The notes under the pieces were generated by a model. It was not told where the DNA came from, did no database searches, and saw only the letters and a program-made list of their open reading frames with translations. This document shows positions 68-9,617 of a DNA stretch of 64,000 nt, in pieces. Made by a program: the position numbers and the translations under genes. Positions within the stretch are counted from its first letter, which is position 1. Every line of letters begins with the position of its first letter. The stretch lies in the NCBI RefSeq assembly GCF_054482595.1, contig NZ_CM137008.1; one strand, given 5' to 3'.

Positions 68-349
68 TTAATCGTTTTTCTTTTGAATAACGAAGGTGGC
101 CAGACTATTGATACTGCGCATATAGGACGGGTCGTCACTTTCGCTGATCTTGATATCAAATACTTTATCCAGCAGAACGACAATTTCCGTTGCATCGACG
201 GAGTCCAGTTTAAAACCATTACCAAACAGCGCAGTATCATCATCAATTTGCGCTTCATCGCGTTGAATATTCAGTCGCTGGATGATCTCCGTTTTAATGG
301 TCATCAGAACTTCTTTACGCTGTTCAATAGCGTCATTCATGGTAGACAT
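68..349 (-). CDS. stand-alone acyl carrier protein
   Basis: 93-aa ORF; phosphopantetheine-attachment-like motif KLDSVDATEIVVLL (Ser in DSV) resembling ACP consensus DSLDTVEL; SD-like AAGAGAG upstream of ATG. Confidence 0.75.
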   Translation of the reverse strand: MSTMNDAIEQRKEVLMTIKTEIIQRLNIQRDEAQIDDDTALFGNGFKLDSVDATEIVVLLDKVFDIKISESDDPSYMRSINSLATFVIQKKND

Positions 350-370
350 AATATTTACTCTCTTATTGGA

Positions 371-919
371 TTACTTGGTTTCACGGAAATTGATAATGGT
401 GCCCTGACTAATCAGCTTTTTACCGACGTACGCGGTCACGGAATAGTGTTTAAAGCCACTGGCATCCGAAAAAGCCAATTTGCTGACAACATCAATAGAA
501 TCACCCGGATAGGCGATATCTTTAAATTTCAGGTTCTGAGCAGCCAGCACGCCGCGTACCTGGCTGCGCCGGGTACGGATAATCTCCAGCATTTCAGGGC
601 GGTGAATGCGTGCGTGAATATCACGTAACGACTTCAGCTCTTCCTCAAAACGTTCGCGCCAGATATCGCAAATGTCGGTCAGGAAAGAGAGATACTCGCT
701 GGCCTGGCCGAAGATTTCCGAAATAATCACCCCGGGCATAATCGGATCTTCCGGGAAATGCCCCAGTAGATACGGTTCGTTATAGGTGACGTGTTTCACG
801 ACACTGACAAAGCCATTTTCACCGTATTTATAATCTGCAATTTTATCGACCATCAGCAGCGGCTGACGCCAGCCGCCCATTTCGAGGAAGATTTTCGAAG
901 GAATCGTGTATTTAGACAT
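371..919 (-). CDS. 3-hydroxyacyl-ACP dehydratase, FabZ/FabA-like hotdog fold
   Basis: 182-aa ORF with LLGHFPEDPIMPGV motif matching the FabZ/FabA active-site His region; 3 bp from the upstream reductase stop. Confidence 0.7.
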   Translation of the reverse strand: MSKYTIPSKIFLEMGGWRQPLLMVDKIADYKYGENGFVSVVKHVTYNEPYLLGHFPEDPIMPGVIISEIFGQASEYLSFLTDICDIWRERFEEELKSLRDIHARIHRPEMLEIIRTRRSQVRGVLAAQNLKFKDIAYPGDSIDVVSKLAFSDASGFKHYSVTAYVGKKLISQGTIINFRETK

Positions 920-922
920 AAA

Positions 923-1684
923 TCACCGCATGACCAGGCCGCCATCGATAACGATGGTCTGGCCGACAATGTAGCTGGAGGCAGAGGAACTTAAGAAGAC
1001 GATGGTGTTCGCCACTTCTTCACATTTCCCCAGACGGCGTAACGGGATGGTACTGGTTACCGCACGGACCACTGCGCGGGATACTTTTTTCACCATTTTC
1101 GATTCAATCATTCCCGGTGCGACCGCGTTGACGCGCACGCCCCAAGGTGCCATTTCTGCTGCCAGCGTGCGGGTGAAGCCGAGGATCGCCCCTTTTGACG
1201 CGCTGTAATTCGCCTGACCGACGCTGGGGATCAGCGCTGCAATAGAGGCAACGTTAATAATGGCGGGATTTTCTGCCGCACGAAGCAGCATCAGCGCGTC
1301 TTTCGTCAGACGGAAAATGCTGAACATGTTGGTTTCGATAACCTGGGTGAAATCCTCATAGCTCATCGAGGCAAACAGGCTGTCTTTAACGATGCCCGCG
1401 TTATTCACCAGCACATCAATCTTGCCAGCTTCGCGCTCTATCTGTTCGCACAATGCGCTCACGCTCTGGGGGCAGGCGAGATCGCACTGCACAATATGCA
1501 GTTTATCGCCTGCCGGATGGCTTGCTTTCAGCGTCGTTAATTGCACGTCGTTGGATTTATAAAGCGCATAAACATCGCAGCTCTGCTCCAGATATTTTTC
1601 GCAAATACCCAGCCCAATATCACCACTGGCTCCTGTCACCAGTACGGTTTTTTCATTTAAATCATTATATTTGTACATATTCAT
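923..1684 (-). CDS. short-chain dehydrogenase/reductase, FabG-like 3-oxoacyl-ACP reductase
   Basis: Rossmann motif TGASGDIG and catalytic YSASK (YxxxK) in translation; start set at internal Met (MNMYKY) to avoid overlap with upstream gene; ORF track gives 923..1720. Confidence 0.75.
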   Translation of the reverse strand: MNMYKYNDLNEKTVLVTGASGDIGLGICEKYLEQSCDVYALYKSNDVQLTTLKASHPAGDKLHIVQCDLACPQSVSALCEQIEREAGKIDVLVNNAGIVKDSLFASMSYEDFTQVIETNMFSIFRLTKDALMLLRAAENPAIINVASIAALIPSVGQANYSASKGAILGFTRTLAAEMAPWGVRVNAVAPGMIESKMVKKVSRAVVRAVTSTIPLRRLGKCEEVANTIVFLSSSASSYIVGQTIVIDGGLVMR

Positions 1685-1697
1685 CACATATGTTGAG

Positions 1698-2066
1698 TTA
1701 ATAAACGATGACAGTCGCAATGGCGTGGGTACGGCAATGCGAAATACTCAGGGAGTTATTTTGCAACCCCTGCCCGATAAAAATTTCTTGTAGTCTTCCG
1801 GAAATAACGAAATAAGGTGCTTTGGCCGCATCATGCTTTATTTCAATATCCTGGAAACGTACGCCATCACGAAAACCACAACCAATCGCTTTAACTAACG
1901 CTTCTTTCGCCGCCCAGAATCCAGAAGCCCGTTCATAATCAGGTTCTGCAGGATTAATGAGTAAGCGCTCATGAGCAGTATAAACACGCTCATAAAAAGC
2001 CATCTCTCCATTAATAATGGCTTTGGTTATTCTGGCAATTTCAACAATATCTGTCCCTATTCTCAT
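1698..2066 (-). CDS. holo-ACP synthase (AcpS-family 4'-phosphopantetheinyl transferase)
   Basis: 122-aa ORF; [13 protein letters not shown] and [11 protein letters not shown] motifs align with E. coli AcpS ([21 protein letters not shown]). Confidence 0.8.
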
Positions 2067-2081
2067 TAGTCTCGTTATCCT

Positions 2082-3701
2082 TTACATTTGGTACGAAAAA
2101 TTAAAATTTACATTCACCCGATCAATATCTAATGTCGCCGGGTACTTTAATGGGGTAGAAACGGAAAAGTTATACTCAAGACTTTTTATGTTTCCATCAA
2201 TACCAACTGCCGCGCCCACCAGTGATTCATCGCCATAAGAAGCGTCCTGATACACTTGCCCAAAATCAAGACCGGCATAATAATTAGCTTTCATTCCAGG
2301 CAAAGGAAATGCCAGCGTGTTTTTTATATAAAAACCATCATTCCCTGACAAACCTACGCTATTTTCAAACCCGCGAATACTCCAACGATCGCCAACTGTA
2401 ATTTGATCTTGCAAAGTCAGTTCACGCGGTGCGTACTGGGCAAAAAAAGCGGTATTGTAATATCCATTCTCTATTTGTCGGGTATAGTTACCCTCAAAAT
2501 TAAAGATATTGCTTACCGGGCTAACGTCGCCATATTGCATATCCGGCGTTTTTTCACCACCGAACCAGGTTAAAAAGCGTTGCCACGAGAGGGTTGAATC
2601 CCAGAACTCGCCGGGTAACTGTTGCTTATAATTTAGCCCCAACTTGATATTTCCCATATCCCGCGCCTGTAATGTCAGCTCCTCACCATTAAGCGTGTAA
2701 TTCGACTTTCGTCGAATGAGTTCTGCACTCCCGGCGAATTTTTTTGTTTTATCGCGATAAACGGTACGCGTCGCCTTTGCGCTCAAGTATTCGCTGGTGC
2801 CAACATAATCCAGCGAGATGTACGAAAGCGGAATCACCTGCTGCGATTTACTTTTGCTATAGAAAAAGCCGTACTCCCAGTACCCCACCGGAATGGAATA
2901 ATAACTACTGACGTTTTCATACTGTCCGGTAGTACTACGCGTACCGGCGAGATAAAACAGATCCCCCATTTTCGCTGGATTAAACAGATAACCCACCGCG
3001 GTTGTCTGGTAACGGCCCGTTTCTTCATCGCCCCAATTATTGTAACTTGCCCGAACGCTCCAGTTTTTCCCCCGGTGTGTATCAATATGAACGATGCTGT
3101 AACCATCCCGTGTTCCCGGTTCAATATTAATTTTCACATCAACGTCAGGTACTCGCTGAAGATTTTCCAGCCCCTGTTCAATATCGCGAATATTGAGAAT
3201 ATCGTTACGCTGAAAAGGTAACATCCATTCACTGATATCATTACCTTCCACAATCGTTTTTTCTATCTTCCCGGCATTAACCTGGAAACGTAGCTTGCCT
3301 TTAGAAATATCCTGTGAAGGAATACTAATTCGCGTTGTGATATATCCGGCATTAATATAATAATCCTGCAAGGCAGCAGCAATTTTTTGCACACCAGCAC
3401 TACCGACACAGCGTCCGGTAACTGCTTTATGTACTTCAGAAATCAACTGACCACCCAGAAAGTTATCTTCCAGTTCAATCCGATTAATGATAAAGCAATT
3501 CTTTTCCTGCGGCAGATCACCCAGAGTAAACGCATTACGTTGTGCATTTGAGTAAACATCTTTTTTTTCTAATTTATGCGCGCGCAACGTGCTTTCATCT
3601 GCATTTTTTTGCTGCTTGATCAAATTATCAAGACTGTCTTTCGCTGCAACTTGAAAACAACAAAGAATGAGCAGCAAACCAAAATTAAATCGTAATTGCA
3701 T
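2082..3701 (-). CDS. two-partner secretion outer-membrane transporter, TpsB (ShlB/FhaC/HecB family)
   Basis: 539-aa ORF with N-terminal signal peptide, POTRA-like region and C-terminal beta-barrel with RGF-type motif (WSIRGFENS); ends in aromatic-rich C-terminus. Confidence 0.85.
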   Translation of the reverse strand: MQLRFNFGLLLILCCFQVAAKDSLDNLIKQQKNADESTLRAHKLEKKDVYSNAQRNAFTLGDLPQEKNCFIINRIELEDNFLGGQLISEVHKAVTGRCVGSAGVQKIAAALQDYYINAGYITTRISIPSQDISKGKLRFQVNAGKIEKTIVEGNDISEWMLPFQRNDILNIRDIEQGLENLQRVPDVDVKINIEPGTRDGYSIVHIDTHRGKNWSVRASYNNWGDEETGRYQTTAVGYLFNPAKMGDLFYLAGTRSTTGQYENVSSYYSIPVGYWEYGFFYSKSKSQQVIPLSYISLDYVGTSEYLSAKATRTVYRDKTKKFAGSAELIRRKSNYTLNGEELTLQARDMGNIKLGLNYKQQLPGEFWDSTLSWQRFLTWFGGEKTPDMQYGDVSPVSNIFNFEGNYTRQIENGYYNTAFFAQYAPRELTLQDQITVGDRWSIRGFENSVGLSGNDGFYIKNTLAFPLPGMKANYYAGLDFGQVYQDASYGDESLVGAAVGIDGNIKSLEYNFSVSTPLKYPATLDIDRVNVNFNFSYQM

Positions 3702-3789
3702 TATCTTCTCAAACTAAATAAAGACAGCAGCAACCCCTGCGTGACATGACGCATTAATATTAAAAGCCACTGCTGTCTTTGGTTACATC

Positions 3790-6700
3790 TTACATGCCGA
3801 CAATAGTACCGGTGTTATCAGTTTCGTTTGCTTCTAACGCTAAACCGTAGAAGCCACCGAGAACAGCGTCTTTACCGCTATTCGTAACCTTATTTGCCGA
3901 TACGACAGCGACACCATAACTCAGCATATTGAGGTAGTTATAAATATTACCGGTGGTTTTAACACCCAGAGAATAATCACCCACAATATTTCCACGGTTA
4001 TTAATGTCATTCACGGCATTGATCGCGATGGTTTGTCCCAACATATTACTGTTGCTGTTGTTGGTAACATACTTCTGCGTATCAATAGTCAGCGCAGTAC
4101 CCGCCACAATGTCTTTAAAGTTCTCAACACCGTTCAGGGCATTAATGGTCAGCGCGTTGTCCGCCGCGATGGCATTACGGTTATACAGCGTGCCTTTCAG
4201 AACATTGAAATGCACATCTCCTTTACCGCTGATCCAACCATAGTTAGTGACACTGTTATCAACGCTCAGATCCAGGTTTTTGTCAGACGCAATCACGCCA
4301 GTGGCGGTATTGTCTTCCAGGCGACCATCGCTGGCGTTGTTCAACGACGCCGCATAAACGTCGAGATTACCGGCGCTGTACGTGGTGGCATAGTTGTTGT
4401 AGAACGTCCCTGCCGCACGGATGATGGCATCAGCCCCACTGCTGAGGAGCGCGCGGGTATTATCCAGCGTTCCTTTGGATAGCAGATTAAGCGGACCATT
4501 TTCAGCGATGATGCTGCTGTTATTGTTGTTGACGTTCTGAGCAGAAAGCGTGACACCTTCTTTACCTACGATGCCGCCAACGTTGTCGGTGATCCCAAAC
4601 AGCGCGCCGTTATTACGCAGGAAGTTATTCCCGTCGCGGTTTTCGAGGTTGCCGCCAGCGTTAATAACCAGCTTTTTATTCGCCGCGATCAGCGCAGTGT
4701 TGTTGTAAATCGTCGATTTAGCATCGACAGAAACATTCTCACCGGCAATCAAACCATAGGCGTTGTCTACGATGTTCGCCGTCAGAGTCACGTCGCCCGT
4801 TTCAGAGGTCAGCGAACCCTTATAGCTGTCGTAGTTGCCCGTCAGTGCCAGCGTGACATCGCCATAACCACGAATTTCACCGTTATCGTTGTTCAGATTG
4901 TTGCCTTTAACAGACAACACGCCGTTCAACGCATGCAGATTACCGCGGTTGTTACCCACGTTACCCTTCGAATCGATAATCAGATCGCCTGTCGCTTCGA
5001 TGGTCGCGTTATTGTTCGCCACGCTATTTGCCGACAATGCGATATCCCCATACCCTACCATATAGAGATAGTTATACAGGTTGCCTTTGGTCGTCACGTT
5101 CAAGTCAGCGTCACTGACAATGTTGCCACGGTTGTTGATATCGTTAACCGCGTTAATAACAATATTCTGCCCCACCATATTGCTGTTGGAGTTGTTGGTC
5201 ACATGGCGATTGGTGTTCATCGTCAGGTCGCCGCCAGCAGAAATATCCTTCCAGTTTTCAATACCGTTCAACGCGGCAATATCCAGCCCCTTTTCAGCCG
5301 CAATGGTATTGCGGTTATACAGGTTGCCGTTATTCACCGTGACATCAACATCGCCTTTACCGCTGATCCAGCCGTAGTTGGTAAGGCTATTCACCACTTC
5401 CAGTGACAGGTTTTTATCAGATGCTATGAACCCGGTCGCATTGTTATCGATCATCGTACCGCTGCTGCTGTTTTGCAGCGTGGTCGCGTCGATATCCAGG
5501 TTGCCCGCACTCCAGGTGGTAGCGTAGTTGTTGTAATACGTTCCGCCAACCTGAATAGATGCATCCGCCCCGCTGGTGACCAGAGCACGCGTGTTGTCGA
5601 ACGTGTTCTGTGCCTGGAGAGTCAGAGGACCATCCTCAGCGATAAGACGACTGTTGTTGTTATAGATGTTCTGCCCGGAAAGCTCGATGCCTTCCTTGCC
5701 GACCATTCCACCCGTTTGCTGAGGCATGCCGAAGTACAGACCATAAGCGTTACCGAAGTTATTGCCATCGCGGTTTTCGATACTGCCGCGCGCATTTATC
5801 TTCAGTTTTTTGCTGGCCACGATCAGCGCTGTGTTGTTATTGACGCCAGACATCGACTCCATCGTGATGTTCTGCCCCATCATGAAGCCGCCGTGGTTGT
5901 CCACTGAGTTGGCTAACAGGGAGATATCACCTTCTTCAGAGCTGATCACGCCAATGTTATTGGTCAGGCTGCCGCCAACGGCGACTTCAATACCCTGCTT
6001 ACCGCTGATCCCCCCGGTATCGTTACGCAGTGAGCTTCCCTTGATAATCACTTTGCTGTTGGACAGAATTTTGCCCGCATAATCGTCGACCGTGCTGTAA
6101 CTTGACAGGGAGACGTTGCCATTAGACGCAATCTGTCCGCCGTTGTTATTGATGTTGTTCGCACCAATTTCTACGCCGGTATCTGCAATAATGCCCAGAG
6201 AGTCAGAACTGCCGGTATCGGCGGTTTTGGTTGAACCATTATTTACGCTACCTGCCGCACCAATAACGATATGCCCGGTGGACGAACGGATCAGACCTTT
6301 GTTGTTATCCACATTACCGTTACTGATAATGGCGATATCGCCGGTGGTCTGAATATCACCGTTGTTGTTATTCAACGCAGCGGATTCAAGACCCACATAA
6401 CCGCCGCGAATCTGACCATTGCTGTTGTTGAGCGTTCCGGTTTTCAGCGCCACGAGCCCCGCTTCAATCCCGACAGAACTCCCTTTACCAGAGTTAATCA
6501 GCGTGGCGTTATTGGTATCAACCGCCAGCATACCTGCTGCGGCGAGCTTGCCGTTGGTGTTATCAATCGTGCCACTGTTAACGTAGATATCGCCCATCGT
6601 GGAGATGTTACCCGCACGGGTATTCACGATAGTATTCTTGTTGGTATTGAGCGAGATAGTGCCTACAGATGTCACCGTACCGGTGGTGTTATCCAGAGTA

Positions 6701-7602
6701 CCATTTGTCGTCAGGTTGATCGTGCTTGCAGACTGAATCTGGGCGTTACTGTTTAACAGATTACCTTTGGAATCGATGCTGACACCATTAACCCCACCTG
6801 CGATAACGCCCAGGTTGCGAACCCCTACACCTTTCTCGGTGCTGACCAGACTGATTTTGTTCGCATACATTCCGCCCAGTTTGGCAACATCTACGCTGTA
6901 ACCGTTACGGTAACCCGTGGCGGATACGCTACCGGTTACCTGGCCTGCGGCGTTAACATAGTTATTACCAGCAACAACGTTCAGCTCATCGGCAGACACT
7001 TTGCCGTTAACCACCACGTTACGGGACAGAATTTCTGTCGGGCTGGCGTTATCCAGTTTACCGAGCGTAATGGTACCGCCGTTCACGGAGTAACCGGCCA
7101 GCTTGTCATCCTGGATATCCGGCGTCCCGGTGGTTAAGGTCAGTTTACCTGTATTGATTGAACCGCCACCGTTTACAGTAATACCATTCGGGTTGGCAAT
7201 AATCAGATCCGCTTTATCCCCTGCAACTTCCATCATCCCATTAATGGTTGAAGGATTTTTGGAAGTAACCTCATTCAGGATCACCTTCGCCGACCCAGAG
7301 GTCAGATTACTGTTTCCCTGAATATTTCCGGCAAGTGAAGTATTGGATTCATTAGCGCTGTTATTGAAAACGACACCATTTTTATCAACGTTTAGGTTAT
7401 CCCAGATATTATGAGATAAACCGCTACCGTTAGGTTTGTTGATATCAACGACTGGCACACCATTGGCGTTATATACCGTTCCATTTTTTATGACTAATCC
7501 CGCCGCTTGAGAAGCTACAGGAAAAGACAACATCATAAGTATAGCAATAGGGGTTAATGCTTTACCCACCGTTGCTTCCTTACTTAAATTTATCATCGCC
7601 AC
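3790..7602 (-). CDS. filamentous haemagglutinin/haemolysin-like TpsA exoprotein
   Basis: 1270-aa ORF; extended signal peptide, TPS secretion domain with ANPNGITVNGG motif, Asn/Gly/Thr-rich beta-helix repeats; no distinct C-terminal toxin domain visible. Confidence 0.85.
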   Translation of the reverse strand: MAMINLSKEATVGKALTPIAILMMLSFPVASQAAGLVIKNGTVYNANGVPVVDINKPNGSGLSHNIWDNLNVDKNGVVFNNSANESNTSLAGNIQGNSNLTSGSAKVILNEVTSKNPSTINGMMEVAGDKADLIIANPNGITVNGGGSINTGKLTLTTGTPDIQDDKLAGYSVNGGTITLGKLDNASPTEILSRNVVVNGKVSADELNVVAGNNYVNAAGQVTGSVSATGYRNGYSVDVAKLGGMYANKISLVSTEKGVGVRNLGVIAGGVNGVSIDSKGNLLNSNAQIQSASTINLTTNGTLDNTTGTVTSVGTISLNTNKNTIVNTRAGNISTMGDIYVNSGTIDNTNGKLAAAGMLAVDTNNATLINSGKGSSVGIEAGLVALKTGTLNNSNGQIRGGYVGLESAALNNNNGDIQTTGDIAIISNGNVDNNKGLIRSSTGHIVIGAAGSVNNGSTKTADTGSSDSLGIIADTGVEIGANNINNNGGQIASNGNVSLSSYSTVDDYAGKILSNSKVIIKGSSLRNDTGGISGKQGIEVAVGGSLTNNIGVISSEEGDISLLANSVDNHGGFMMGQNITMESMSGVNNNTALIVASKKLKINARGSIENRDGNNFGNAYGLYFGMPQQTGGMVGKEGIELSGQNIYNNNSRLIAEDGPLTLQAQNTFDNTRALVTSGADASIQVGGTYYNNYATTWSAGNLDIDATTLQNSSSGTMIDNNATGFIASDKNLSLEVVNSLTNYGWISGKGDVDVTVNNGNLYNRNTIAAEKGLDIAALNGIENWKDISAGGDLTMNTNRHVTNNSNSNMVGQNIVINAVNDINNRGNIVSDADLNVTTKGNLYNYLYMVGYGDIALSANSVANNNATIEATGDLIIDSKGNVGNNRGNLHALNGVLSVKGNNLNNDNGEIRGYGDVTLALTGNYDSYKGSLTSETGDVTLTANIVDNAYGLIAGENVSVDAKSTIYNNTALIAANKKLVINAGGNLENRDGNNFLRNNGALFGITDNVGGIVGKEGVTLSAQNVNNNNSSIIAENGPLNLLSKGTLDNTRALLSSGADAIIRAAGTFYNNYATTYSAGNLDVYAASLNNASDGRLEDNTATGVIASDKNLDLSVDNSVTNYGWISGKGDVHFNVLKGTLYNRNAIAADNALTINALNGVENFKDIVAGTALTIDTQKYVTNNSNSNMLGQTIAINAVNDINNRGNIVGDYSLGVKTTGNIYNYLNMLSYGVAVVSANKVTNSGKDAVLGGFYGLALEANETDNTGTIVGM
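3853..5907 (-). repeat. internal tandem duplication inside tpsA (two diverged ~1.13 kb units)
   Basis: Protein residues ~566-872 and ~944-1250 align (e.g. NNTALIVASKKLKINARGSIENRDGNNF vs NNTALIAANKKLVINAGGNLENRDGNNF; TNYGWISGKGDV in both); DNA segments near 4180-4330 and 5285-5440 are visibly similar. Confidence 0.6.
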
Positions 7603-7863
7603 TAACGTTTTCCTTATTGATGCTATTCATTTTGGACATGCAGATCACTTTTGATGACTCACGGAATATCAGCAAAAATGATTGCGGCAAATCCTATCAC
7701 CAGGCGCAATAAAAAATCACGAAAAATAAGCTGAAATAAGGACTCAAAAAACAACTAAGAGTTATTGTTTTTTCATCGAACGGCGAAGTACCTAACTTAC
7801 TAAAACACAATAATTTAAAAGTTTCCCATCCTTCCTCCTTGGGTGAAAAAAATCCAATTTAGA

Positions 7864-7914
7864 GGATGTCTGAAATGATATGTAGTTTTCTGTACGACAT
7901 CATTTCAGACATCC
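7864..7914. repeat. perfect 16-bp inverted repeat (GGATGTCTGAAATGAT / ATCATTTCAGACATCC) with 19-bp spacer
   Basis: Read directly from sequence at 7864-7879 and 7899-7914; lies ~260 bp upstream of tpsA start in a 1.4 kb AT-rich intergenic region. Confidence 0.6.
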
Positions 7915-8993
7915 GAATAAAACAACAAAGTTGGTGAGCTACAATTAATTTAAATCTTGTCATTTGATTAACAAAGCATCAGCATTACTGCATCTTATTC
8001 TCTATATCTTTTACGTCGGGGTAGATTCGTTATGGTCATTACGGGCAGGCACCATTTCATTATATTACCATTTGCATTCACGCTTGTAACCCTTAAGAGT
8101 TATATAAAAGGAAATAGTTCTTGCTCATGGTAATACTGAGATCGGATTAACCATGAGGTTAGCTATATAGAGAGAGCTTTGGCTTTGCGACAATTGGCTT
8201 AAGCAGCCACATTATGTCTGGCTTATCGTTGAAAGATAGAAAGATGGGCAAAACGGTTTTACAAGGTTTCATTCCCATCTAATAGCAATCACCGCTATAC
8301 ATCATCCCTTAACGTACTCTGGCCTTCATAAAAATGTTATTCAAAATTAAAGATTGTAATGATTTTCATAATGTTGTTATTATTTTGCAACAAATAAATC
8401 TAACACAATGATTATTAGCTATTTTTTATTAGTTAAGAGGAGTTGTTTTTTACAGACTGCGCTATAATTCCGCTCATTTTTCACCACAGGAAAAGCTGAA
8501 GTAATCTTAAATGACTGTATTAACCCTTTTCTCCGCTGCCAGCACTCTTATATATCGTTGTTTTATTCTTATAAAAATGGTTTTTTTGACATAAAAAGTA
8601 ATAGGTTCAGCCATTATGCAGAATTTACAACCTGATAAAATCGCAAAAACCCTCCTTACCCAGAATAAAAATCTGATCATCATCTTTCGGTAAGAATTAA
8701 ATTACTATATTACCGTTCAACATCAGTATGAATGAAAATTCAATTGTTATACATGTGATGAATGTCATATATTGTGCTCATCGATTGCAGGACATCGCTA
8801 TTCTTTTAGAGATACAGATATCACGCTGTTACTCTCTATATAAAGAACACACAAAGATTAGTTGTGTTACTGCAGTTGTTATGTCGCATATGGAAAGCCC
8901 ATTGTTACATCTTTAGTAAAAAGATTTATTCACTTTCAAAATTTTTACTGCATGAAGATGGGCTGTTTTGCTGCAAGCAATTGAGTTAGTGCA

Positions 8994-9617
8994 ATGAACA
9001 AGAACTTACTAACAAGGGTAATTATCATTTCGGATGATCTATATTACCTTCAGGGATTAAGTGCAAAACTAGGTCACCATTATCGTTTTTTTATTGAGTG
9101 TTTTTTTTGTTCTCAAAATGCATGTAATAATGACCTAAGTACACTTAGATTTGATAACCGCTTTACCAAAAACGTACTTCTTGTCGCAGTGGATGACGTA
9201 AGTATACTTGCAAAACTGCCAGATTTGGCCAGGTTTTTAATGATTGTTTCACTAAGAAAGATGAAAAACAGAAATATCTTCTTTTCACTTTCAGAGCAAA
9301 CATTCATTAGCCGATATATAAAATTGAATAAACTCATTACTTTGATTAAAAGCACTGATAAAGACCAGCAAGTCAGGCAGGTGACTCTGACAAGGTATGA
9401 GTGGGATATCTATTACTTATATTTTAAGATAGATAACAAAAGAATATTGCACACCCTGCTAAAAAAGGATGTCAAGTATATTAGTCACTATAAAATATCA
9501 GTTTTTAACAAGTTTGAAATTGCTTGTGATAGTGATGGCTTTTACATTTTCAAGGCACTTATACAGTTAAGGAGATTTACCGGTTTTAAAAACGTCAGAT
9601 TGTATCAATTGCATTAA
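8994..9617 (+). CDS. putative fimbrial operon regulator (LuxR/MatA-like, tentative)
   Basis: 207-aa AT-rich ORF immediately upstream of the pilin gene; C-terminal LTRYEWDIYYL...ISVFNKFEI loosely resembles a LuxR-type HTH; architecture parallels ecpR/matA-type regulators; weak. Confidence 0.4.
   Translation: MNKNLLTRVIIISDDLYYLQGLSAKLGHHYRFFIECFFCSQNACNNDLSTLRFDNRFTKNVLLVAVDDVSILAKLPDLARFLMIVSLRKMKNRNIFFSLSEQTFISRYIKLNKLITLIKSTDKDQQVRQVTLTRYEWDIYYLYFKIDNKRILHTLLKKDVKYISHYKISVFNKFEIACDSDGFYIFKALIQLRRFTGFKNVRLYQLH

What the first reader, a model, noticed from the sequence alone, without database searches (positions are those of the whole stretch)
7603..8993. 1.4 kb AT-rich non-coding region with a perfect 16-bp inverted repeat between divergent tpsA and the fimbrial regulator
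An unusually long intergenic region for an enterobacterial chromosome, very AT-rich (typical H-NS-silenced horizontally acquired DNA). It contains a perfect palindrome (GGATGTCTGAAATGAT, 19-bp spacer, ATCATTTCAGACATCC) at 7864-7914 that could be an operator, an sRNA terminator or a recombination site. No convincing ORF is present, so an sRNA or a phase-variation switch controlling the two divergent adhesin operons is possible.
Basis: partly seen in the sequence, partly recalled or inferred. Interest (0 to 1): 0.4.

Follow-up and report, generated by a model that had tools for sequence, protein, structure and literature searches.

The report
Conserved stem-loop upstream of otpA adhesin gene
The long AT-rich gap between a secreted-adhesin gene (otpA) and a fimbrial operon in E. 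coli island OI-47 is a non-coding control region, and its 16-bp palindrome is a real hairpin kept intact through evolution, most likely folding in the otpA messenger RNA leader and not acting as an sRNA or a DNA-inversion switch.

Summary
Window 7603-8993 is a 1391-bp, 33.6 % GC gap with no conserved ORF. It lies between otpA (TpsA, minus strand) and a 207-aa gene that heads the loc6 chaperone-usher operon of E. coli island OI-47. The 16-bp/19-nt/16-bp palindrome at 7864-7914 is the longest perfect inverted repeat in the 64-kb window; 0 of 1000 shuffles reach it.

It is not chance and not junk:
- Seven haplotypes in 29 E. coli-type sequences show two compensatory double substitutions. All three uncompensated transitions are G·U only in the otpA-sense strand.
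- In a divergent orthologous island (genes about 80 % identical, the rest of the gap mostly unalignable) the hairpin sits at the same distance from tpsA. Its arm cores are 20/20 identical and its spacer is exactly 19 nt, different in sequence but again self-complementary.
- The 260 nt between the hairpin and otpA fold into a conserved structure on the otpA-sense strand only.

Best reading (confidence about 0.45): a cis-acting stem-loop of a long structured otpAB 5' leader. A DNA-level operator, an insulating terminator and a neutral quasi-palindrome remain possible. An invertible switch, a repeated mobile element and a known RNA family found no support. No published transcript data cover the site. 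The 207-aa protein has a NarL/FixJ-type regulator fold.

The parts
7603..8993 (.). 1391-bp AT-rich (33.6 % GC) non-coding divergent control region of island OI-47, between otpA and the 207-aa gene / loc6 fimbrial operon
   Evidence: No conserved ORF. Single copy in 380 of 5426 complete E. coli genomes.
7864..7914 (-). HP1: the 16-bp perfect palindrome with 19-nt spacer. As RNA it forms a stem of about 21 bp with an 8-nt loop (CAGAAAAC in otpA sense).
   Evidence: Compensatory changes G7865A+C7913T and G7868A+C7910T. Single changes T7867C, G7868A and G7864A are G·U on the minus strand only. Retained in the divergent orthologue L030 at 6972-7014.
7871..7879 (.). Left-arm core TGAAATGAT, invariant in all E. 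coli haplotypes and in L030-L033
   Evidence: 9/9 identical, against about 38 % identity in the flanks.
7899..7909 (.). Right-arm core ATCATTTCAGA, invariant in all lineages
   Evidence: 11/11 identical. The 13-nt exact match 7897-7909 is the third-best local similarity between the two gaps.
7880..7898 (-). 19-nt spacer. Its length is invariant and its sequence is 37 % identical between lineages, but it is self-complementary in both (GUA/UAC here, GUGUG/CACAC in L030).
   Evidence: (pair at A5 columns 105:114 is A-U in 13 sequences and G-C in 3).
7603..7775 (-). Conserved otpA-proximal leader. It holds hairpin HP2 (7771-7748), a small hairpin (7746-7727), hairpin HP3 (7697-7629), and the invariant UUUUUUAUUG (7716-7707), predicted to pair with CAAUAAGGAA (7619-7610, the otpA Shine-Dalgarno).
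   Evidence: Only 0-4.6 % divergent among E. coli haplotypes, against 3.5-6.6 % at otpA third codon positions. 82-88 % identical to L030. RNAalifold finds 4 covarying pairs and 99.6 % of cells paired. Consensus fold energy is -31.9 kcal/mol (minus) against -10.4 (plus), with shuffles at -13.5 ± 3.0.
7930..7937 (-). UCACCAAC, predicted to pair with GUUAGUGG (7606-7599), which covers the GUG start codon. Suggestive only.
   Evidence: 5 of 7 pairs vary and 98 % of cells stay paired. The helix was selected post hoc by RNAalifold.
7947..7974 (-). Conserved AT-rich block with weak sigma-70-like hexamers TTGTTA (7974-7969), 16 nt, TAAATT (7952-7947). It would start transcription near 7940, 26 nt before HP1.
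   Evidence: Read from the sequence. TTTGTTAA is invariant in 16 sequences. It matches 8 of 12 positions, below the scan threshold, and the -10 is not conserved in L030.
8744..8773 (+). Sigma-70-like promoter TTGTTA, 18 nt, TATATT for the 207-aa gene / loc6 operon. Predicted start near 8780, giving a leader of about 213 nt.
   Evidence: Flagged independently in the window and at the homologous place in L030 (TTGTGA-18-TATATT). Both hexamers and the spacing are conserved in L030 and L034.
8692..8715 (+). Conserved block AAGAATTAAATTACTATATTACCG upstream of that promoter. Possible activator site.
   Evidence: AAG.ATTAAATT..T.TATTA is conserved in three lineages. Function not tested.
7800..8699 (.). 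Fast-evolving central part of the gap. Apart from HP1 and short blocks it is not alignable with the orthologous island.
   Evidence: 2.7-10.8 % divergent among E. coli haplotypes, at or above third-codon-position divergence in most comparisons. No blastn match to L030 between window 7771 and 9384.
3790..7602 (-). otpA (TpsA exoprotein; ECs_1282 in Sakai; 1270 aa)
   Evidence: Pfam TPS 3.6e-41 and Fil_haemagg. Annotation. otpAB = ECs1282-1283.
8994..9617 (+). 207-aa NarL/FixJ-type response-regulator-like protein (ECs_1281), first gene before the loc6 pilin
   Evidence: No Pfam, NCBIfam or PDB sequence hit. AF2 pLDDT 83.6; Foldseek hits EvgA, RcsB, FixJ and NarL. Sub-threshold GerE hits in distant homologues.

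Best explanation
The palindrome is a cis-acting stem-loop (HP1) that forms in RNA transcribed in the otpA direction (minus strand). It would be the 5'-proximal hairpin of a long leader, about 340 nt, of the otpAB two-partner-secretion mRNA. Downstream of it the leader forms further conserved hairpins and pairings that cover the Shine-Dalgarno sequence and probably the GUG start codon, so the default state of the message would be translationally closed.

HP1 has a long, nearly perfect stem of about 21 bp and sequence-invariant arm cores. It would act as a stabilising 5' hairpin or as a recognition or processing site, for a double-strand-specific RNase or an RNA-binding factor, that sets how much otpAB message survives or opens.

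Shown:
- The hairpin is non-random.
- Its pairing is maintained by compensatory change.
- It is retained at fixed position and spacing in a divergent orthologue.
- The adjacent leader has strand-specific conserved structure.

Inferred:
- That HP1 lies inside the otpA transcript (start near 7940).
- What binds or cuts it.
- The regulatory outcome.
For: 1. Non-random: 0/1000 shuffles reach 16 bp, and it is the longest inverted repeat in 64 kb.

2. Seven hairpin haplotypes occur in 29 E. coli-type sequences. Relative to the window, haplotype C carries four stem substitutions that form exactly two compensated pairs, plus A7863C, which adds a 17th pair. I estimate about 1e-3 for four random stem substitutions to do this; that figure is my own calculation, not a tool output. 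Stem positions vary about as much as the flanks, yet on the minus strand 97.6 % of cells of the 19-pair HP1 structure (16-pair stem plus 3 apical pairs) stay paired across 16 sequences.

3. All three uncompensated transitions (T7867C in O157:H7/O55:H7, G7868A, G7864A) give G·U in the minus-strand RNA and A·C or C·A on the plus strand.

4. In the orthologous island L030-L033 (genes 78-82 % identical in nucleotides) the gap is not alignable by blastn beyond window 7771. HP1 nevertheless sits 265 nt from the tpsA start, against 262 nt here. The arm cores are 9/9 and 11/11 identical, the spacer is exactly 19 nt and 37 % identical, and the apical stem is remade as GUGUG/CACAC with an 8-nt loop.

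5. The leader from 7863 to 7596 has a consensus fold of -31.9 kcal/mol on the minus strand against -10.4 on the plus strand, with column shuffles at -13.5 ± 3.0. Four pairs covary and seven one-sided changes all stay paired.

6. A helix between 7937-7930 (just 5' of HP1) and the start-codon region varies at 5 of 7 pairs and stays 98 % paired. If real, it puts HP1 inside the same RNA.
Against: - No transcript start or end is known. Cappable-seq of EDL933 in eight conditions lists no start within 250 nt upstream of otpA, only one inside the gene at 1436432, about window 7531. The orphan-start table that would cover the site is truncated in the held copy.
- The promoter-like site upstream of HP1 is weak (8/12), and its -10 is not conserved in L030.
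- L030 has a promoter-like match between HP1 and HP2 and a terminator-like hairpin just upstream of HP1. Either could put HP1 outside the otpA message.
- The arm cores are conserved in sequence, not only in pairing, which also fits a DNA site.
- HP1 alone folds equally well on both strands.
- Strand assignment from three transitions is weak (chance 1/8).
- Haplotype D carries a true mismatch.
- Only two deep lineages are available, so covariation counts are few and the leader structure was derived from the same sequences.
Confidence: 0.45

Rival explanations
1. DNA-level element: the two invariant 9-11-bp arm cores are half-sites for a DNA-binding protein, or the palindrome extrudes as a cruciform in supercoiled AT-rich DNA. 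Candidate binders are the island's own NarL/FixJ-type 207-aa protein, GrvA, or a nucleoid protein. The element would act as an operator or architectural site for otpA and possibly the divergent fimbrial promoter.
For: The arm cores are 20/20 identical between lineages while the flanks and spacer are 37-38 % identical, and the spacing is fixed at exactly 19 bp. A LuxR-HTH regulator-like gene lies next door, and such proteins bind inverted repeats (established knowledge). HP1 alone shows no strand preference in folding.
Against: The centre-to-centre distance of the half-sites is about 30 bp, far from the 2-4-bp gaps of NarL/LuxR-type dimer sites. A duplex operator does not explain the conserved self-complementarity of a spacer that differs in sequence, or the compensatory changes in the outer stem. 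The half-site is not repeated elsewhere in the window above chance: 6 found, 6.0 expected. The G·U pattern of single changes favours RNA.
Confidence: 0.2
2. End of a separate transcript: HP1 is the 3' hairpin of a small RNA, or an insulating terminator that stops minus-strand read-through from the AT-rich central gap before the otpA promoter. In L030 it would work together with the hairpin just upstream of it.
For: The stem is strong (-28.9 kcal/mol). A U-rich run follows at 7852-7846 here and UUUU follows in L030. L030 has a canonical terminator-like hairpin immediately 5' of HP1 and a promoter-like site 3' of it. A conserved AT-rich block lies 25-60 nt upstream.
Against: The U-run starts 11 nt after the stem here, so the terminator scan does not call it. 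The stem is AU-rich and about 21 bp long, unlike intrinsic terminators. There is no Rfam hit. Nothing is listed at these coordinates in the Sakai Hfq-CLIP or RIBO-seq/RNA-seq supplements. The DNA upstream that would encode the RNA body is not conserved between lineages.
Confidence: 0.15
3. Neutral quasi-palindrome: it has no function. Template switching during replication of an imperfect inverted repeat is a known mutational mechanism in E. coli. It repeatedly 'corrects' one arm against the other and so mimics compensatory evolution.
For: Apparent compensation can arise this way without selection (established knowledge of quasi-palindrome mutagenesis). HP1 lies in the fast-evolving part of the gap. 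Haplotypes with one mismatch are common: O157:H7, about 300 genomes.
Against: Position, 19-nt spacing and 20 nt of arm sequence are retained in an orthologue whose surrounding DNA has diverged beyond alignment. The apical stem is rebuilt from different bases. Template switching would not conserve the sequence of both arms against drift or keep the distance to otpA.
Confidence: 0.1
4. Phase-variation switch or recombination site: the palindrome, or the 12-bp inverted repeat at 7915-7926 / 8557-8568 that flanks 630 bp, is the target of a site-specific recombinase that inverts a promoter segment.
For: Fimbrial operons often use invertible promoters. A perfect 12-bp inverted repeat flanks 630 bp next to HP1 (I11).
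Against: All 380 genomes match the whole 1391 bp in one co-linear piece. The 19-nt spacer has one orientation in all 29 sequences. No recombinase gene lies within 12 kb on either side. I estimate about 0.2 such 12-bp repeats by chance in this AT-rich gap; that is my calculation, not a tool output. The repeat is not conserved in L030.
Confidence: 0.03

Closest known systems
Stabilising or regulatory 5'-UTR stem-loops of enterobacterial envelope-protein mRNAs (for example the ompA 5' hairpin) and RNase III-processed leader hairpins
   Same: A long stable hairpin near the predicted 5' end of a long leader. Pairing is maintained by compensatory change. The stem is about two helical turns long, as in RNase III substrates.
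   Different: Neither the 5' end, a half-life effect nor cleavage has been shown. The arm sequence, not only the pairing, is conserved. The comparison rests on recalled knowledge and was not tested here.
FourU-type RNA thermometers / anti-Shine-Dalgarno leaders
   Same: An invariant U-rich stretch (UUUUUUAUUG, 7716-7707) is predicted to pair with AAGGAA of the otpA ribosome-binding site.
   Different: The pairing spans about 90 nt rather than a local hairpin. No base varies, so there is no covariation evidence. Temperature response is untested. This concerns the leader, not the palindrome itself.
fimS-type invertible promoter switches of fimbrial operons
   Same: Location in a fimbrial control region, and presence of inverted repeats.
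   Different: No recombinase gene, no alternative orientation in 380 genomes, and a 19-bp spacer that cannot hold a promoter.
Operators of NarL/FixJ (LuxR-HTH) regulators, such as RcsB and EvgA boxes
   Same: An inverted repeat next to a gene for a protein of that fold.
   Different: Half-site spacing of 19 bp instead of 2-4 bp. Binding is untested.
Rho-independent terminators / sRNA 3' hairpins
   Same: A strong hairpin with U-rich sequence downstream.
   Different: No U-tract adjacent to the stem, an AU-rich stem of about 21 bp, no scan call and no Rfam family.

Membership tests
fimS-type invertible DNA switch | Both orientations of the segment between the inverted repeats occur in populations or genomes | tested here: not met
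   380 of 380 genomes are co-linear over 1391 bp. The spacer orientation is identical in 29 sequences.
fimS-type invertible DNA switch | A dedicated tyrosine or serine recombinase gene nearby | tested here: not met
   None is annotated within ±12 kb.
fimS-type invertible DNA switch | The invertible segment carries a promoter | tested here: not met
   The spacer is only 19 bp. The conserved loc6 promoter (8744-8773) lies outside both inverted-repeat pairs.
Rho-independent terminator / sRNA | A GC-rich stem directly followed by a U-tract | tested here: not met
   The scan does not call it. The tail is UCUAAAUUGGAUUUUUUU and the stem is AU-rich.
Rho-independent terminator / sRNA | A detected short transcript or a match to a curated RNA family | tested here: inconclusive
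   Rfam gives only chance miRNA hits, E 0.04-0.7. Nothing is listed at these coordinates in the Sakai Hfq-CLIP or small-gene supplements. The island may be silent in those conditions, and the orphan-start table is truncated.
Cis-regulatory RNA structure in a 5' leader | Pairing preserved by compensatory and wobble-compatible changes | tested here: met
   HP1: 3 pairs with changes on both sides and 97.6 % of cells paired. Leader: 4 such pairs and 99.6 % paired.
Cis-regulatory RNA structure in a 5' leader | The structure is specific to the sense strand of the downstream gene | tested here: met
   Met for the leader downstream of HP1 (-31.9 against -10.4 kcal/mol). For HP1 itself the only evidence is 3 of 3 G·U-compatible transitions.
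Cis-regulatory RNA structure in a 5' leader | The element lies between the transcription start and the start codon | not testable with these tools
   No mapped start. The promoter-like site at 7974-7947 is weak. Cappable-seq data are incomplete for this site.
Repeated palindromic or mobile element (REP, MITE, IS end) | Multiple copies per genome | tested here: not met
   One place per genome in 380 genomes with a 111-bp query. Absent from 100,044 species representatives, except for 5 hits with the pattern in non-enterobacterial genomes (a Niallia, a Desulfosporosinus and three metagenome-assembled genomes), whose context was not examined.
NarL/LuxR-type operator | Two half-sites separated by a few bp and bound by the regulator | tested here: not met
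   The spacing is 19 bp. Binding is not testable here.
H-NS-silenced xenogeneic DNA | AT-rich relative to the genome, within a horizontally acquired island | tested here: met
   33.6 % GC against 47.8 %. The island is present in 7 % of E. coli genomes and is OI-47.
H-NS-silenced xenogeneic DNA | H-NS occupancy or derepression in hns mutants | not testable with these tools
   No ChIP or hns-mutant data for this locus were found.

The most novel reading that the evidence does not exclude
HP1 and the structured leader behind it form a previously undescribed cis-regulatory RNA module dedicated to a two-partner-secretion adhesin. In this module a sequence-specific factor recognises the invariant hairpin arms and opens an otherwise closed ribosome-binding site and start codon. 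The factor could be the island's own atypical NarL/FixJ-like protein acting on RNA or on extruded DNA. This would couple OtpA production to the divergent loc6 fimbriae.
Probability: 0.12. Interest if true: 0.55.

Novelty: new member of a known kind. Interest (0 to 1): 0.4.

Why it matters
OI-47 is carried by nearly all EHEC O157:H7. It encodes the OtpAB secretion system (function still unknown), the loc6 fimbriae, GrvA and VmpA, yet nothing is known about how otpAB or loc6 are switched on; they appear silent in the laboratory.

This work defines concrete targets for experiments that could reveal the inducing signal and hence the role of these adhesins:
- a conserved hairpin;
- a structured leader with a masked ribosome-binding site;
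- a conserved loc6 promoter;
- a NarL/FixJ-type regulator candidate.

It is also a clean small example of compensatory evolution of a hairpin visible within one species.

Tried and rejected
- **Small ORFs in the gap.** A four-codon ORF behind a perfect AAGGAGG (7836-7815) looked like a leader peptide. Its start, frame and Shine-Dalgarno sequence change among haplotypes. The 62-aa ORF 8728-8916 is frameshifted in O157:H7.
- **Other species.** A peptide-pattern scan of 100,044 species genomes with the 207-aa protein found nothing. A palindrome-pattern scan found only 5 hits, all in non-enterobacterial genomes and not examined further. Eight metagenome contigs all carried known E. coli haplotypes.
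- **Enterobacter-like tpsA relatives.** These (70-77 % aa identity) are truncated remnants beside wza-wzb-wzc, with an unrelated upstream region and no hairpin.
- **Fur box.** The arms contain AATGAT/ATCATT, but they are separated by 19 bp rather than 1 bp. Rejected on the recalled consensus only.
- **Transcription-factor motif elsewhere.** The half-site count in the window equals chance.
- **Literature.** The papers on otpAB (Choi 2007) and on the fimbrial loci (Low 2006) are not held. The PNAS dRNA-seq/Term-seq paper has no held supplements. The EDL933 translatome supplements hold nothing at the estimated coordinates.
- **First structure model.** The AF2 model from 5 sequences was unusable (pLDDT 38.6). 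It succeeded only after an exhaustive profile search added distant homologues.
Full report
**Where the window comes from**

The 1391-bp region matches 380 of 5426 complete E. coli genomes. In each it occurs once, full-length and in one piece, at 91-100 % identity. The carriers include O157:H7, O55:H7 and O145:H28.

Annotation and literature identify the locus as genomic island OI-47 (Sakai S-loop 71). The minus-strand gene ending at 7602 is otpA (ECs_1282), the exoprotein of the OtpAB two-partner secretion system, whose function is unknown. The plus-strand genes from 8994 are ECs_1281 (207 aa, 'hypothetical') followed by the loc6 chaperone-usher fimbrial operon ECs1280-1276. GrvA and VmpA lie further on. 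In Sakai the gap is 1,348,686-1,350,075. In EDL933 (CP008957) it is 1,434,971-1,436,360.

**Checking the observation**

- The gap has 33.6 % GC, against 47.8 % for the window.
- The palindrome (arms 7864-7879 and 7899-7914, 19-nt spacer) is the only perfect inverted repeat with arms of 12 nt or more and a loop of 3-60 nt in all 64 kb. None of 1000 dinucleotide shuffles of the gap exceeds 13 nt.
- No ORF of 30 aa or more is intact across ten aligned haplotypes, and none has a family hit.
- Rfam gives only chance-level miRNA matches.

**Variation within E. coli**

I aligned the window with nine diverse genomes, each with ±2 kb of flank. The gap has three zones:
- The 200 bp next to otpA differ by 0-4.6 %.
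- The 290 bp next to ECs_1281 differ by 1.4-3.8 %. Both values are at or below the 1.9-7.0 % seen at third codon positions of the flanking genes.
- The central 900 bp (7800-8699) differ by 2.7-10.8 %, at or above that rate in most comparisons, and are mosaic among haplotypes.

The palindrome lies in the fast zone and varies as much as its flanks, but the variation is structured. Across 29 sequences (genomes plus eight metagenome contigs) there are seven hairpin haplotypes:
- A: perfect (the window).
- B: G7868A.
- C: G7865A+C7913T and G7868A+C7910T, perfect again. A7863C adds a 17th pair.
- D: B plus C7910A, a true mismatch.
- E: T7867C. This is O157:H7/O55:H7, roughly 300 genomes.
- F: C plus G7864A.
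- A seventh type has the perfect stem of A with a different flank.

Four substitutions forming exactly two compensated pairs is unlikely by chance; I estimate about 1e-3 (my calculation, not a tool output). All three uncompensated changes are transitions that give G·U in the otpA-sense RNA and A·C or C·A in the other strand. That is weak evidence on its own (1/8 by chance).

**A divergent orthologue**

The 207-aa protein has almost no relatives. A 56 %-identical homologue (P0004) led to contigs L030-L033, which carry the same island with the same gene order at 78-82 % nucleotide identity. By blastn the two gaps align only next to otpA (to window 7771). The region from 7771 to 9384 gives no match.

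Yet an inverted repeat with a 19-nt spacer sits 265 nt upstream of the tpsA start, against 262 nt here. The arm cores TGAAATGAT and ATCATTTCAGA are identical (20/20). The spacer is exactly 19 nt but only 37 % identical, and the flanks are 38 % identical. The new spacer is again self-complementary: GUGUG/CACAC around an 8-nt loop, against GUA/UAC around an 8-nt loop in E. coli. This includes an A-U to G-C exchange.

The hairpin arm is the third-best local similarity between the two gaps. This argues for selection on an extruded hairpin with sequence-specific arms. It argues against a purely neutral quasi-palindrome kept perfect by template switching, which I regard as the main null model.

**The leader behind the hairpin**

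RNAalifold on 16 distinct sequences (otpA sense, window 7990-7596) predicts:
- HP1.
- HP2 at 7771-7748, with a C-G to U-A exchange.
- A small hairpin at 7746-7727.
- HP3 at 7697-7629.
- A 10-bp pairing of the invariant UUUUUUAUUG (7716-7707) with CAAUAAGGAA (7619-7610), the otpA Shine-Dalgarno.
- A helix between 7937-7930 and 7606-7599, which covers the GUG start.

Counting pairs on these structures gives 99.6 % of cells paired, four pairs with changes on both sides, and seven one-sided changes that all stay paired. The start-codon helix varies at 5 of 7 pairs and is 98 % paired.

The strand test is clear for the leader. The consensus energy is -31.9 kcal/mol in otpA sense and -10.4 for the complement, with column shuffles at -13.5 ± 3.0. 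HP1 alone is symmetric (-9.5 against -11.8).

So a structured RNA in otpA sense covering at least 7770-7596 is well supported. That HP1 belongs to the same RNA is an inference. It rests on the G·U pattern, the start-codon helix and a weak promoter-like site: TTGTTA 7974-7969, 16 nt, TAAATT 7952-7947, with a start near 7940.

**What speaks against this**

- The promoter-like site matches only 8 of 12 positions, and its -10 is not conserved in L030.
- L030 has a promoter-like match between HP1 and HP2, and a terminator-like hairpin immediately upstream of HP1.
- The structures were derived from the same two deep lineages on which they were counted.
- Published data do not settle the matter. Cappable-seq of EDL933 in eight conditions lists no start within 250 nt upstream of otpA, ECs_1281 or the pilin gene. 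It lists only a start inside otpA (1436432, window about 7531, behind a TATACT). The table of orphan starts is cut off before this region in the held copy.
- The Sakai RIBO-seq small-gene lists and the Hfq-CLIP sRNA lists hold nothing at these coordinates. This fits a silent island as well as it fits absence of an RNA.

**Alternatives examined**

- **Inversion switch.** There is no alternative orientation in 380 genomes or 29 spacers and no recombinase gene. The only other notable inverted repeat (12 bp, 7915-7926 / 8557-8568) is near chance expectation and is not conserved.
- **Terminator or sRNA.** No adjacent U-tract, no scan call, and no family match.
- **Repeated element.** Single copy per genome, and absent from other species' representative genomes.
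- **Operator.** Sequence conservation of the arms fits. The 19-bp gap, the conserved spacer self-pairing and the lack of further half-sites do not.

**The other side of the gap**

A sigma-70-like promoter (TTGTTA, 18 nt, TATATT, 8744-8773) is called by the scan here. It is called independently at the homologous place in L030. Both hexamers and the spacing are conserved in L030 and in a third lineage, L034. A conserved block lies upstream at 8692-8715. This is the likely promoter of ECs_1281 and loc6.

**The 'regulator'**

ECs_1281 has no Pfam, NCBIfam or PDB sequence match. An exhaustive profile search found eight more distant homologues of 195-223 aa. Three of them have sub-threshold GerE hits.

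With these the AlphaFold model reached pLDDT 83.6. Foldseek places it with EvgA, RcsB, FixJ and NarL, that is, a receiver-like domain plus a LuxR-type helix-turn-helix. One distant homologue again precedes a chaperone-usher operon. Another sits beside EAL, ToxR-like and 160-aa genes that echo the VmpA-GrvA-FidL set of OI-47.

**Verdict**

The palindrome is a real, selected hairpin in the otpA-proximal part of a bipartite control region. The best-supported mechanism is a cis-acting stem-loop of a long, structured and probably translationally closed otpAB leader (confidence about 0.45). It is of modest novelty and testable.

Noticed in passing
window 8744-8773 (+), L030 7742-7771, L034 about 250-280: A sigma-70-like promoter, TTGTTA-18-TATATT, is conserved in hexamers and spacing across three diverged lineages. 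It is the likely promoter of the 207-aa gene / loc6 operon, with a leader of about 213 nt. A conserved block, AAGAATTAAATTACTATATTA, lies upstream at 8692-8715.
   Followed up: partly
window 7716-7707 and 7619-7610 (minus strand): The invariant UUUUUUAUUG is predicted to pair with CAAUAAGGAA, the otpA Shine-Dalgarno. This is a fourU-like mask spanning about 90 nt. No base varies, so conservation is the only evidence.
   Followed up: partly
window 8994-9617: The 207-aa 'hypothetical protein' (ECs_1281) has no family hit. It models confidently as a NarL/FixJ-type response-regulator-like protein (nearest structures EvgA and RcsB). The family has about a dozen cluster representatives among 1.84 billion proteins.
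   Followed up: yes
L038 761-1384; L039 2377-5648: Distant homologues of the 207-aa protein sit directly before another chaperone-usher operon, or beside an EAL gene plus a ToxR-like (Trans_reg_C) gene and a 160-aa gene. The latter arrangement echoes VmpA-GrvA-FidL of OI-47.
   Followed up: no
window 7800-8699: The central gap differs by up to 10.8 % among E. coli haplotypes, at or above third-codon positions of the flanking genes in most comparisons. It is mosaic: L006 is window-like at 7800-7990 but L003-like at 8016-8700. This suggests recombination between deep allelic classes.
   Followed up: partly
window 7915-7926 and 8557-8568: A perfect 12-bp inverted repeat (GAATAAAACAAC / GTTGTTTTATTC) flanks 630 bp and starts right next to the palindrome. 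It is never seen inverted in 380 genomes and is not conserved in L030.
   Followed up: yes
window 7973-7958 (minus strand): TGTTAATCAAATGACA matches 13 of 16 positions of the ArcA box as I recall it (TGTTAATTAAATGTTA). It lies within the conserved AT-rich block upstream of the hairpin. This is a recalled consensus and was not tested.
   Followed up: no
window about 7531 (minus strand; EDL933 1436432): Published Cappable-seq lists a transcription start 71 nt inside the annotated otpA ORF, 7 nt after a TATACT. It is probably a spurious intragenic promoter in AT-rich DNA.
   Followed up: partly
L030 7043-7023 (minus strand): The divergent orthologue has a canonical terminator-like hairpin (GAGAAAC...GTTTCTC plus a U-rich tail) immediately upstream of its copy of the palindrome. 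It is created partly by a 6-nt insertion. E. coli has only a weak 4-bp counterpart.
   Followed up: partly
window 7846-7852 and 7746-7751: Homopolymer length differs among haplotypes (T7/T8 and T6/T7 in otpA sense). The second tract is the 3' arm of leader hairpin HP2.
   Followed up: no
L002 12233-13446; L004 3391-4013: The operon is decaying in some strains. An IS3-family insertion splits the loc6 chaperone and usher genes in O145:H28 RM12761, and the 207-aa gene is frameshifted in strain YZMc3-1.
   Followed up: no
L035 6001-8000; L036; L037: Enterobacter-like genomes carry truncated tpsA remnants (70-77 % aa identity) beside wza-wzb-wzc. These are followed by an IS and by parts of the same acyl-carrier/ketosynthase cluster, but there is no fimbrial operon. 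The secretion-plus-lipid-synthesis module therefore travels separately from loc6.
   Followed up: no
window 83-7602 (minus strand): otpA is followed on the same strand by otpB, then acpS, an SDR reductase, a FabZ-like dehydratase, an ACP, an aminomethyltransferase and ketosynthases. The order tpsA before tpsB is unusual, and the link to a fatty-acid/polyketide-like cluster hints at a lipid-modified or lipid-associated product.
   Followed up: no
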